A stretch of 63,974 nt of DNA, the filler included, from Basidiobolus ranarum (taxonomy: Eukaryota), in assembly GCA_040143965.1 (NCBI GenBank). It is 54 parts of 54 records of this genome, joined end to end, with 100 filler letters (N's around TTAATTAATTAA, not from the genome) between each part and the next. Parts side by side here need not be neighbours in the genome. Positions count along the whole stretch, not along the records: positions 35,677 to 36,762 come from JASJQH010006504.1; 53 more parts are not named here. One strand, given 5' to 3'. The translations under genes were made by a program, and so were the position numbers. The notes below the pieces were generated by a model. That model had not been told where the DNA came from and searched no databases. It saw only the letters and a list, made by a program, of their open reading frames with translations. The stretch's first letter is position 1. Every line of letters starts with the position of its first letter. This document shows positions 20,142-60,335 of this stretch, piece after piece.

Positions 20142-21430
20142 NNNNNNNNNNNNNNNNNNNNNNNNNNNNNNNNNNNNNNNNNNNNTTAATTAATTAANNN
20201 NNNNNNNNNNNNNNNNNNNNNNNNNNNNNNNNNNNNNNNNNCAAGTGTAAATCCAAACATTAGCTCTCATAGTTGCATATAAATGTCTAATAGCAGTCAG
20301 AAAAAATAGCCATCCACCTAATAAGACTGATGGGCAATCAACTCCTACAACAGTGCTGACATCTACTGAACCATCTACTGCAGGCCTTCAATTGCCACAA
20401 CCAGAAAACCAAAGAAGAGGTAGAAGAAGAGGTTGAAGGGTAGGGGGCCATGGTAGGAGAGGAAGAAGTGATAGGCAAACATGTTTGCAAAGTATTCCAG
20501 AAAGTCAGCTAAGTTCATAACAATGCACAATAACCACTGTGACAAATGATCATTTAGCTGAAGCCTACAAACATGATAAGGAAGCATAAACCAAGTATTG
20601 AGAGGGGATACTTCACAAAGTTCTTCTAGACATGTGTAGACAAATTCAGCAGCTATAGGGATCCCTAACTGAGGCAAGGCAAAGATTTACCAAGCTAGAT
20701 GGCTATAAAGACAGTAGATTTATTCTTTGGGGGGGAAGAAAAGCACCGTATGGTGTGAACATTATTTAGCTTAAATACTATTCCAAACAAAACAACTATC
20801 AACACATTAATCCTTTACAATACTGTGACACTTAGGGTATAGATGTTCTGGTAAGGGTAAGGGAAGGTTGTTGTGCACAAACATACAAAGTTGCTTAAAC
20901 TTACACCCTTTCTATACAACTTGTTGGAATATCAGTTTAGTTTATCATTATTGCTAACTAGTCACCTGACCTTATTCAGTGATTTATCATGTGATCTATC
21001 ATGTGACTAAAAGTCTATTTTCTTATCCCTTCTATCAGATCATACAATCAATCACATGATCATTATTCAATCAGTATTAACCTCTGAGTCATCTGCCTAG
21101 ACACAAGTCAATTTGAGTCACAAGATTCATAACCAGTGATCTTTCACTACCAAGACTTCAGCTGATGCATGACTCACTTATCTATCTATATATCTATCCA
21201 ATCACATTTTCTTTTATTTGAATTAGTCATCTAATATCTTGGTGCTGACTAATTCACTTTGCTATCAAAAAGTATAAATAAAGCTAACTGAACCTTTTGG
21301 TTTAGTGTGTGTCTCAACAAATATAGGATCNNNNNNNNNNNNNNNNNNNNNNNNNNNNNNNNNNNNNNNNNNNNTTAATTAATTAANNNNNNNNNNNNNN
21401 NNNNNNNNNNNNNNNNNNNNNNNNNNNNNN

Positions 21431-35676: not shown

Positions 35677-35787
35677 GTGAAAGCATGGAAGCCTCTCATG
35701 AATGGATTTCACTAAGAGGAGCTCAAACACCTTCCTGCAATTAGGTAGCAAAGAAATAGGCCTGTAGGACTTGGGATCACTATGTTT
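35677..35787 (-). mobile_element. Non-LTR (LINE) reverse transcriptase fragment
   Basis: KHSDPKSYRPISLLPNCRKVFELLL matches the YRPISLL...K LINE RT motif. Confidence 0.85.
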
Positions 35788-35846
35788 CAGTTTGACTTCG
35801 GAGATCGGACGGGATCCGGTATTTTCTGGTATGTATGGCCAATGCT
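35788..35846 (-). rRNA. 5S rRNA 5' half (about nt 1-59), truncated
   Basis: AGCATTGGCCATACATACCAGAAAATACCGGATCCCGTCCGATCTCCGAAGTCAAACTG contains the eukaryotic 5S hallmarks GGCCATAC and GATCCCGTCCGATCT. Confidence 0.85.
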
Positions 35847-36862
35847 CAAGGGTTAGGGTATAGATGTTCTGGTAAGGGTAAGGGAGGGTAAGGATGAAAA
35901 GAGGGGGTCTGGGGGACGCAGTCCTCCCAGTATAAAAAGAAAGCAGGGGGTATGGGGGATGCAATCCCCCATGTACACCCTTCTCACAATATACTCAAGT
36001 CACTAGTATATGGGAAGAGTTGGGCTTGCCCAAATTTTCCAAAGGTCAGATCTCTGACCTTTGACATCCCTGAGGAAGAGACACTGTTTCCAACATTATA
36101 ACACAGCCTATTCTAGCTTTCATAATTTTCATGAATTTAGAAAAATTTCTCAGATATTGAATACTTTTTAATTTTTGTAAATTTGCAAGTCTCTGGGAAA
36201 TCAAAGTGCAGATGTTTTCCTTCAGACTCTGAAAGCTTTTAAGTATTATAATTTTACCATAAGTAAACTGGCTACTTTTTAGCTTAATAATTCATAAATT
36301 ACTTATTGAGAATATCCTTTATATACTATTGAGAGTAATGAGGAAACTTGATTAACATTATGAATCAGTAATATTTGTAAGAACTTTGTGATGTTTACAA
36401 GATTAAATAAAGAAGAAAGTGAATATTAGATATATCATAATTATATTACAAATCTAGAAATATTGAAAGTATTGATAAAAGCTTTCTACTCATGTTTTAC
36501 AAATATTGACATACTACTAGCACTAAGCTCCATAGATGTTTATTTATATACAAAACAACAAAATAGTCCTTAAAATAAACTTTTGGGCTATGTAACCTGC
36601 GCAGCACAAAGGTGCTACAAATTTAAAAAGTTGTATAAAATGCAATGTATTTGTAACTAAGGTATTTCATATAATATAAATAAAAGCAACGCGCACTACA
36701 GAACCCTCTATAATTTCAAAAACCTACTAACTTTTGAGCTGCGTAGTACAGGAAATATGCCTNNNNNNNNNNNNNNNNNNNNNNNNNNNNNNNNNNNNNN
36801 NNNNNNTTAATTAATTAANNNNNNNNNNNNNNNNNNNNNNNNNNNNNNNNNNNNNNNNNNNN

Positions 36863-51457: not shown

Positions 51458-52030
51458 ATGATGCCTGAACAAGCAATTACTGAAACCATTTCTTGCTTTC
51501 AGCAATTAATGCCCAACAAATTCACTGGTTCTGATGTAGTTCAATACCTGTCAGAATTTAATGAAGTTTGTGATATTCTGGAAATCACTGACAAGAGAAA
51601 AATTCAACTATTTCTCATCATATCAGAGAGCCAAATATCCAAGCAACTAAGAACACTCAACTGCTTCAAGATCAAGTCTCTTGCAACACCATTGTGGACA
51701 GATGCAGAAAAAGCTATCTTAGAAGAATTTCAGCAAGATGAAGACCTACCTACACTCAATGATCTAGAGATTGCTTACAACCCAAGCATTTCTTTAGCTC
51801 ATTATATCAGAAACTATGAAGCAGTAGCCAACAACATTGACAGCAAGATAGGAATACCTAAGCATTATAAAAGAAACTACTTTATCCTCAATTTGCCCAA
51901 GGAAATGAGAGATTCCATCAGCCAGAAACTTACAGCAACTAGTACCTATGAAGAAGTTAAAGATTGGGTCTTGAAGCTCAACACAGGTCACTCTAGGGTT
52001 AGGGGGGATGAAAAGCACCAGATGGTGTAG
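51458..52030 (+). mobile_element. Gypsy-type gag ORF (190 aa; 3' end probably interrupted by another repeat)
   Basis: Lies just after the LTR and PBS. FTGSDVVQYLSEFNEVC...FILNLPKEMR resembles a capsid pattern. Confidence 0.65.
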
Positions 52031-52716
52031 ACTTTATTTAGCTTAAATACTAATCTAAACAAAGTGACAATCAAGACATCAATCTTTTGAGATATTGTGT
52101 CAATACTGAATCATATCCATACTTAACCTGATGACCAATGTAATCAAGCTCAGAGNNNNNNNNNNNNNNNNNNNNNNNNNNNNNNNNNNNNNNNNNNNNT
52201 TAATTAATTAANNNNNNNNNNNNNNNNNNNNNNNNNNNNNNNNNNNNNNNNNNNNTTCTGGGAATCATTAGTGATTTAAAGTTACCATGAATCAGAATCC
52301 TTTTCACAACTGGGCGGCTAGTGTAAAAGCATATAGATATTATTATCTTCGTCTAAATGGCATATATATTAGTGCTGAACTTATTATCAAAAGTAGTATT
52401 GTGAAAGCAAACGAGTCAAGTAGAAAAGAATAACGATTAATCAAATATTGTCTATGGATAATAGTTTGTATAAAGCGGGCAACTCTAACACTTTACTATC
52501 AAACTACTCTCAGATAACTTGGTGAACTAAGCCACGTGAAGATCAACGCTACCGTTTCAAAAATCATTTAACCTAATCCGCATTCATTTGCCAATTCTAA
52601 ATATACCTAATATTCCAAATCATCAAGTCCATTCCAAGGTTAGTTTCACATTTTTAATCCTTTGACCAAGTCTTAGACTCTGAAAATGGTACTCTTAAAG
52701 CCCAAGATAGTACGAG

Positions 52717-60262: not shown

Positions 60263-60335
60263 TGGTCTGGCCAGGAATTGAACCTGGGACCTCCTTCACT
60301 CTAGCAAGGTGCTCTAACCTCTGAGCTACCAGTCC
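60263..60335 (-). tRNA. tRNA-like element (pseudo-tRNA or SINE head) with AGA at the anticodon position
   Basis: GGACTGG TA GCTC AGAGGTTA GAGC A CCTTG CTAGAGT GAAGG AGGTC CCAGG TTCAATT CCTGG CCAGACC A folds as a cloverleaf with A and B boxes. It has stem mismatches and a short variable loop. Confidence 0.7.

What the first reader, a model, noticed from the sequence alone, without database searches (positions are those of the whole stretch)
35677..35975. 5S rRNA 5' half fused directly to a LINE reverse-transcriptase fragment: candidate 5S-targeting LINE or fungal SINE3
Seen: on the minus strand, about 59 nt of 5S rRNA stops inside the box A region (…GAAGTCAAACTG) and continues without a spacer into the LINE RT motif KHSDPKSYRPISLL, in the same orientation. 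The 5S part keeps four CpGs, while the RT part has none. Established: 5S-headed SINE3 elements are known mainly from animals, and some non-LTR elements insert site-specifically in structural RNA genes. Inference: a 5'-truncated LINE insertion in a 5S gene, a template-switch chimera, or a Pol III-headed nonautonomous element. Any of these would be little described in early-diverging fungi.
Basis: partly seen in the sequence, partly recalled or inferred. Interest (0 to 1): 0.75.

Follow-up and report, generated by a model that had tools for sequence, protein, structure and literature searches.

The report
5S fragment caught in retroelement stack
A single piece of 5S ribosomal RNA was copied into the DNA of an early-diverging fungus between two jumping-gene fragments, which makes it a one-off passenger and not a new 5S-homing element, but the stack of telomere-tailed elements around it may be one way this fungus patches broken chromosome ends.

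Summary
The fusion is real but has three parts, not two. On a 1,086-bp contig (G000:C6504) lie the natural 3' end of a non-coding repeat (RepA, 102 ends in the genome, telomere-repeat tail), then 2 nt, 5S rRNA nt 1-59, and a 5'-truncated LINE. The junction was found once; no other LINE copy examined has a 5S head or a 5S flank, and the piece lacks most of the Pol III promoter, so a 5S-targeting LINE and a SINE3 are not supported. RepA and the LINE form polar head-to-tail stacks (45 of 45 recognised next pieces same-sense). Best reading: a reverse transcriptase jumped from LINE RNA to a 5S fragment and ran to its 5' end; RepA was added next. One site is telomere-capped on one contig and RepA-extended on its homologue, but RepA also inserts internally. 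The host is Basidiobolus ranarum by a protein match. This scan noted the stacks earlier on other DNA of this genome (e1-7323045); the 5S capture and the capped/extended pair are added here. No reads were available.

The parts
35849..36762 (-). 3' 914 nt of RepA, a non-coding repeat of at least ~2.3 kb (125-bp tandem array further 5'), cut by the contig end at 36762
   Evidence: 43 matches to its last 255 nt (154 candidates, 40 scored); 102 copies of the terminal 21-mer, 0 in the reversed control; tandem array 7.2 x 125 bp; longest frame 42-72 aa in two RepA-only stretches
35912..35970 (-). Two G/C-rich hairpins of the RepA 3' module
   Evidence: Last 134 nt fold at -35.5 kcal/mol, z -3.28, 0 of 200 shuffles as good; coordinates
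35849..35858 (-). Telomere-repeat tail CCCTAACCCT, the natural 3' terminus of RepA
   Evidence: Copies end sharply here with 0-12 nt of the repeat; the same hexamer forms tracts of up to 18 units at contig ends
35847..35848 (-). 2-nt spacer TG: non-templated addition, or the -2/-1 flank of a 5S gene after CpG decay
   Evidence: C8344 has CG at -2/-1; the two readings cannot be told apart
35788..35846 (-). 5S rRNA nt 1-59, starting at the model's +1 and stopping before the end of box A; one CpG-to-TpG change
   Evidence: promoter box positions recalled, not from a call
35677..35787 (-). 5'-truncated LINE ('LINE-B'), 111 nt just upstream of the RVT_1 domain, cut by the contig end
   Evidence: 110 of 111 identical to L002 and L003; L002 has RVT_1, E 1.1e-24; family 3' end about 1.45 kb downstream (inferred)

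Best explanation
A one-off retro-chimera inside a polar stack of retroelement 3' ends. A LINE reverse transcriptase copied LINE-B RNA from its 3' end to the KHSDPK codons, switched to a 3'-truncated 5S rRNA, and copied it to its 5' end. The free DNA end then received RepA, a non-coding partner RNA whose telomere-repeat tail pairs with 1-4 nt at the exposed end, either by a second jump in the same reaction or as a later addition. The piece has no usable promoter and did not spread. Shown: three-part anatomy, single copy in the assembly, same sense, RepA natural 3' end, 5S +1 start, polar stacking, telomere-repeat tails. Inferred: the RNA route, the order of events, and the enzyme (LINE-B or its APE-bearing sister family).
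For: Both outer borders are natural RNA ends: 5S starts at +1 and RepA stops at its fixed 3' end. After RepA ends, 23 of 89 flanks begin with a recognised library piece, and after LINE-type ends 22 of 87; all 45 are same-sense, 0 opposite, and they start at many different truncation points. Pieces are rarely flanked by unique DNA on the 5' side (10 of 141 boundaries) but often on the 3' side (77 of 211). RepA junctions show overlaps of about 1-4 nt with the tail, judged by eye on 23 junctions. No exact word spans the 5S|LINE join. Precedent: 5S/L1 chimeras in mammals, where same-sense chimeras are ascribed to template switching or RNA ligation (10.1101/2025.02.02.635956, passages); a tripartite LINE chimera in Magnaporthe (PMC2104539, abstract).
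Against: One event only. No other rRNA or snRNA capture was found in 60 other RepA-end loci (80,022 bases; one weak antisense U1 hit below threshold and one tRNA-like repeat). The 11 nt of 5S before the join match the displaced LINE sequence at 7 of 11 in register (about 0.7% of random pairs, a post hoc test), and the -1 G matches the C8344 flank; both also fit DNA-level annealing. No LINE-B copy reaching the endonuclease was found among 51 scored matches. Opposite-sense neighbours do exist away from the tested junctions (L011, L019, L167). The inner end of the insertion is not assembled, and reads were not available.
Confidence: 0.62

Rival explanations
1. DNA-level capture: during repair of a break in the stack, a 5S gene fragment or loose 5S cDNA was patched in by strand annealing or end joining.
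For: 7 of 11 in-register similarity at the 5S|LINE join; -3..-1 reads TTG against TCG on C8344. C8344 holds another rearranged 5S piece beside a septin gene.
Against: The three bases at the join itself mismatch the LINE. Similarity stops within 3 nt of +1, and the sense matches all 45 tested neighbours.
Confidence: 0.17
2. RNA ligation: a 5S 5' fragment was ligated to a broken LINE RNA and the fused RNA was reverse-transcribed once, as proposed for U6/L1.
For: Blunt same-sense join without exact microhomology; the route is named for U6/L1 chimeras (passages).
Against: It does not account for the many element-to-element joins with tail overlaps in the same stacks; no RNA data.
Confidence: 0.1
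3. Library or assembly chimera on a short contig.
For: 1,086-bp contig, joins 111 and 170 nt from its end, no read check; the rDNA array appears to be missing from the assembly, so 5S reads had no home.
Against: It needs two chance joins 59 nt apart that hit RepA's natural end and 5S +1. The longest exact words shared are 8-9 nt and lie away from the joins. The 5S piece has a private CpG-to-TpG change and the LINE piece a private substitution.
Confidence: 0.07
4. 5S-targeting LINE (Mutsu-like) inserted at nt 59/60 of a 5S gene.
For: Same-sense 5S 5' half directly upstream of a truncated LINE; 5S arrays may be unassembled.
Against: 87 LINE-type 3' flanks share no target and none is 5S-like. The upstream flank is RepA, not a 5S spacer. 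Only 2 convincing 5S-like places were found in the genome.
Confidence: 0.02
5. SINE3-like non-autonomous element with a 5S head and a LINE tail.
For: 5S +1 start followed by LINE 3' sequence is SINE-like anatomy.
Against: Single copy. The head ends at nt 59, without IE or box C, the motifs kept by 5S-derived elements (PMC10886601, passages; positions recalled).
Confidence: 0.02

Closest known systems
ncRNA/LINE retro-chimeras: mammalian 5S/L1 and U6/L1; Magnaporthe WEIRD-MgSINE-MGL tripartite chimera
   Same: Short cellular RNA fused 5' of a truncated LINE, single copy, not self-propagating; three-part form known in a fungus.
   Different: Mammalian 5S pieces are mostly antisense and cut near nt 46 or 90; here it is sense and cut at 59. 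The outer neighbour is a telomere-tailed repeat; target-site duplication cannot be tested.
Fungal telomeric retrotransposons MoTeR1/2, Cnl1, FoTeR (CRE clade)
   Same: Arrays with 5'-truncated copies, a second related element (MoTeR2), truncation healed by de novo telomere (PMC7367193 passages).
   Different: Those carry a REL endonuclease. This family is APE-RT with no C-terminal nuclease domain detected, nearest to human L1 ORF2p among solved structures (E 3.5e-21 against 1.5e-6 for R2), and it also inserts internally.
APE-type telomere-associated LINEs: Drosophila HeT-A/TART/TAHRE, Bombyx TRAS/SART, Chlorella Zepp
   Same: Polar head-to-tail stacks of mixed families with the 5' end outward (orientation recalled; element list in PMC10088271 passages).
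   Different: TTAGGG tracts persist here; tails are 0-2 units, not long tracts; hundreds of 3' junctions with unique DNA; a terminal position is indicated for only two or three contigs.
Mutsu (zebrafish 5S-specific LINE) and SINE3/AfuSINE3
   Same: 5S sequence next to LINE sequence.
   Different: Mutsu is multi-copy and inserts ~20 nt into 5S genes (PMC5340908 passages); SINE3 keeps box A, IE and box C. Neither feature is met.

Membership tests
5S-targeting LINE (Mutsu-like) | Many copies inserted at one position in 5S genes; 3' flank is the rest of 5S | tested here: not met
   87 3' flanks, 4 shared pairs, none 5S-like; 2 5S places. Caveat: the rDNA array appears unassembled.
5S-targeting LINE (Mutsu-like) | Upstream flank is 5S gene spacer | tested here: not met
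   Upstream is the RepA 3' end.
SINE3 | Multi-copy family with a shared 5S head | tested here: not met
   Junction in 1 of 298 loci; 13 other LINE matches lack the head.
SINE3 | Box A, IE and box C retained | tested here: not met
   Head ends at nt 59; box coordinates recalled.
ncRNA/LINE retro-chimera | Cellular RNA copy fused directly to a 5'-truncated LINE, unique event | tested here: met
ncRNA/LINE retro-chimera | Whole unit flanked by a target-site duplication, with the LINE 3' tail | not testable with these tools
   The contig ends 111 nt into the LINE.
MoTeR/Cnl1/FoTeR | CRE-clade RT with REL endonuclease | tested here: not met
   Relatives at 59-64% identity to LINE-B over the RT region have an N-terminal APE domain and no other Pfam domain.
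MoTeR/Cnl1/FoTeR | Confined to chromosome ends | tested here: not met
   On C155 RepA lies between two flanks that read as one helicase-C frame.
Telomere-associated LINE arrays (HeT-A/TART, TRAS/SART) | Head-to-tail, same-sense stacks of 5'-truncated copies | tested here: met
   45 of 45 same-sense.
Telomere-associated LINE arrays (HeT-A/TART, TRAS/SART) | Stacks lie at chromosome termini, 5' end outward | tested here: inconclusive
   2 of 8 contigs with four or more telomere units join a terminal tract to a truncated element in this polarity; one capped/extended pair; short contigs cannot prove a chromosome end.
Named LINE clade (L1, RTE, CR1/L2) | RT phylogeny with named references | not tested
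   No named reference set was at hand; nearest named hits are about 35% identical or less. Only CRE/R2-type anatomy is excluded.

The most novel reading that the evidence does not exclude
Basidiobolus, reported to have 60 to many hundreds of small chromosomes, heals and extends chromosome ends with several APE-type LINE families and non-coding partner RNAs that end in a telomerase-like CCCUAACCCU tail. They prime on free DNA ends, alternate with telomerase, and occasionally copy bystander RNAs such as 5S onto the growing end. This would be a hybrid telomerase/LINE end-maintenance system built from a retroelement type not among the fungal telomeric elements in the papers read here.
Probability: 0.25. 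Interest if true: 0.8.

Novelty: new variant of a known kind. Interest (0 to 1): 0.45.

Why it matters
The 5S fusion alone is a new case of a known accident and would matter little. It matters as a footprint: it suggests that the stacks are written by a template-jumping reverse transcriptase that accepts RNAs other than its own. If the stacks mark healed chromosome ends, this fungus would be a testable case of LINEs and telomerase sharing ends, which bears on how retroelements take over telomere maintenance and on the unexplained many-small-chromosome karyotype of Basidiobolus.

Tried and rejected
Read support could not be examined. Looking for more captured structural RNAs in 60 of the 102 RepA-end sites found none. 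Contig-end polarity (57 of 60 with the 5' side nearer the end) was rejected as evidence for terminal position, because assemblies break inside repeats. The search for the reciprocal half of a uricase copy cut by RepA was inconclusive: many paralogues, and the candidate half starts at a contig end. A search for more capped/extended pairs among 181 sites found only C13172/C10413. The metagenome scan gave only distant relatives (23-38% identity; best 80 of 196 kept), none with 5S and one with a telomere-like word. The third RF00001 hit (C10171, E 0.9) and the 2-mismatch pattern hit (C10737; not 5S-like) were dropped as chance. The 106-aa frame through the fusion crosses three unrelated parts and was rejected as a gene. 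The Clostridiales-2 hit (E 0.076) is the RepA hairpin. The lone LSU rRNA fragment (C1626) is not joined to a RepA or LINE end. Two papers could not be opened; no supplements were read.

Full report
Setting. The window is a chain of 54 unrelated contigs of about 1.09 kb joined by N spacers. The finding lies on one 1,086-bp contig, G000:C6504, window 35677-36762. A P450 from another contig of this genome matches a protein named for Basidiobolus ranarum at 100%. That species is reported to have a haploid genome of about 350 Mb and 60 to many hundreds of small chromosomes (PMC3281927, passages); the assembly holds 65 Mb in 13,754 contigs, so much repeat DNA is missing.

Observation. On the minus strand, 35846-35788 is 5S nt 1-59 (RF00001, E 1.9e-4). 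It differs from the only other 5S-like copy found, on C8344, by one CpG-to-TpG change. It joins 35787-35677, a LINE segment 110 of 111 identical to two other copies, which carry native LINE sequence where the 5S sits. The CpG contrast is real, but it reflects a CpG-free LINE family (0 in 1,057 nt of L002).

A third part. The remaining 914 nt are the 3' end of a repeat I call RepA. Its terminal 21-mer occurs 102 times, and 0 times read backwards. Copies stop sharply after it with 0-12 nt of telomere repeat. RepA extends at least about 2.3 kb, has a 125-bp tandem array, no long frame in the stretches examined and a structured 3' module (z -3.28). The LINE family (LINE-B; 397 candidates for its 3' end, 40 scored) also ends in a hairpin plus the telomere repeat. 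The same hexamer forms tracts of up to 18 units at contig ends.

Is 5S a target or a head? No. The junction is in 1 of 298 loci held, the CpG-tolerant 5S core matches exactly at 2 places, and the family search gives 2 credible hits among 47 scored candidates. Among 87 LINE-type 3' flanks only 4 pairs share sequence and none is 5S-like. Mutsu, the known 5S-specific LINE, is multi-copy at a fixed site (PMC5340908, passages). 5S-derived elements keep box A, IE and box C (PMC10886601, passages); this piece stops inside box A (positions recalled). One caveat: the rDNA array appears absent from the assembly (one LSU fragment and one sub-threshold SSU hit, under a stricter filter), so insertions inside 5S arrays could be hidden.

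The stacks. I took 90 RepA ends and 89 LINE-type ends from the loci held; the latter include sister families that share the terminal motif. Against a library of 9 sense-defined sequences, 23 of 89 and 22 of 87 usable flanks begin with a recognised piece; all 45 are same-sense and start at varied truncation points. The other 131 flanks were not recognised. Boundaries seen inside loci have unique-looking DNA at 10 of 141 5' sides and 77 of 211 3' sides; the loci were mostly chosen by 3' ends and the boundaries are not independent, so the p-value is not to be taken at face value. RepA joins often overlap the tail by about 1-4 nt (by eye). The 5S piece thus sits where any other truncated piece sits.

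Mechanism. Both outer borders are RNA ends, the sense is uniform, and the 5S|LINE join has no exact overlap. The simplest route is reverse transcription of LINE-B, a jump to a 5S fragment, run-off at +1, two extra bases, then RepA. Same-sense ncRNA/L1 chimeras are ascribed to template switching or RNA ligation, while mammalian 5S/L1 pieces are mostly antisense (10.1101/2025.02.02.635956, passages). Double jumps are reported in Magnaporthe (PMC2104539, abstract). Template jumping by a non-LTR RT is the subject of PMC8857657 (search listing only). Against this: 7 of 11 in-register matches before the join (0.7% of random pairs, post hoc) and a flank match at -1 leave DNA-level capture open, and 60 other RepA-end loci show no second structural-RNA capture.

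The enzyme. Five unnamed relatives at 59-64% identity over the RT region and a sister family in this genome are single-frame proteins; four relatives and the sister were scanned and show APE plus RT and no other domain. The nearest solved structure is L1 ORF2p. No LINE-B copy reaching the APE region was found among 51 scored matches. The clade is not named. The REL-bearing CRE clade of MoTeR, Cnl1 and FoTeR (PMC7367193 passages; PMC12857005 abstract and one section) is excluded by anatomy.

Chromosome ends? Eight contigs carry four or more telomere units. In two, a terminal tract is joined to a truncated LINE-B or RepA with the 5' end outward; in one, another repeat's 3' end sits on the outer side of the tract; four join unique DNA near a contig end; one is internal. 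C13172 and C10413 share the same LINE-B copy and inner flank (97% over 249 nt). One is cut 42 nt shorter and capped by 12 telomere units; the other carries RepA and further pieces. That is what a dynamic end would look like, though a long tail of an unassembled element cannot be excluded. Against a purely terminal role: on C155 RepA separates two flanks that read as one helicase-C frame (Pfam model 47-109 on one side; the other side judged by eye), and opposite-sense neighbours exist. Where C6504 itself lies is unknown.

Artefact. Reads could not be checked. A mis-join is unlikely: the longest shared words are 8-9 nt and lie away from the joins, two joins hit natural RNA ends, and both captured pieces have private changes.

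Novelty. Five full-text searches listed no paper whose title or abstract start describes 5S/LINE chimeras or telomere-tailed LINE stacks in Basidiobolus or other early-diverging fungi; the library lacks most subscription papers, and I read listings, not all texts. 5S-related SINEs are already predicted in Aspergillus (PMC5063351, abstract). Known telomere-associated retroelements are listed in PMC10088271 (passages). This scan noted the stacks earlier and saw no evidence for end healing (e1-7323045); the capped/extended pair and the captured 5S are new to it. Interest 0.45.

Noticed in passing
L018:5780-5863 (G000:C8344), minus strand: The only other 5S-like sequence found has nt 1-70, lacks the third domain, and ends in a diverged helix-I-like strand; it lies opposite a septin gene, 38 nt from the contig end.
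   Followed up: partly
window 60263-60335, minus strand: The tRNA-like hit is part of a multi-copy repeat (also L167, L192, L104, L013, L047) that here is followed by a CCTAACCCTAACCC stub and a sugar-transporter-like coding stretch (the gene label is by eye).
   Followed up: partly
L091 (C13172) and L154/L297 (C10413): The same LINE-B site is telomere-capped on one contig and extended by RepA on the other.
   Followed up: yes
L042:158-673 (C3565): A uricase copy is cut mid-gene by two telomere units and RepA; the genome holds many uricase copies (45 domain matches).
   Followed up: partly
L090, L092, L094, L076: Telomere tracts join unique-looking DNA directly near contig ends, with no subtelomeric repeat recognised.
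   Followed up: no
L097:1046-1200 (C8532), L150, L095: At least three further families (a distant APE-LINE and two uncharacterised repeats) end in the same telomere-type tail and stack with RepA and LINE-B.
   Followed up: partly
L277:1494-2340 (C1626): An isolated LSU rRNA fragment (model 24-802), the only LSU locus found; it is not joined to a stack.
   Followed up: partly
window 20731-20868 and 52003-52155: Two other contigs in this window carry LINE-B 3' ends, one preceded by a RepA tip in the same sense.
   Followed up: no
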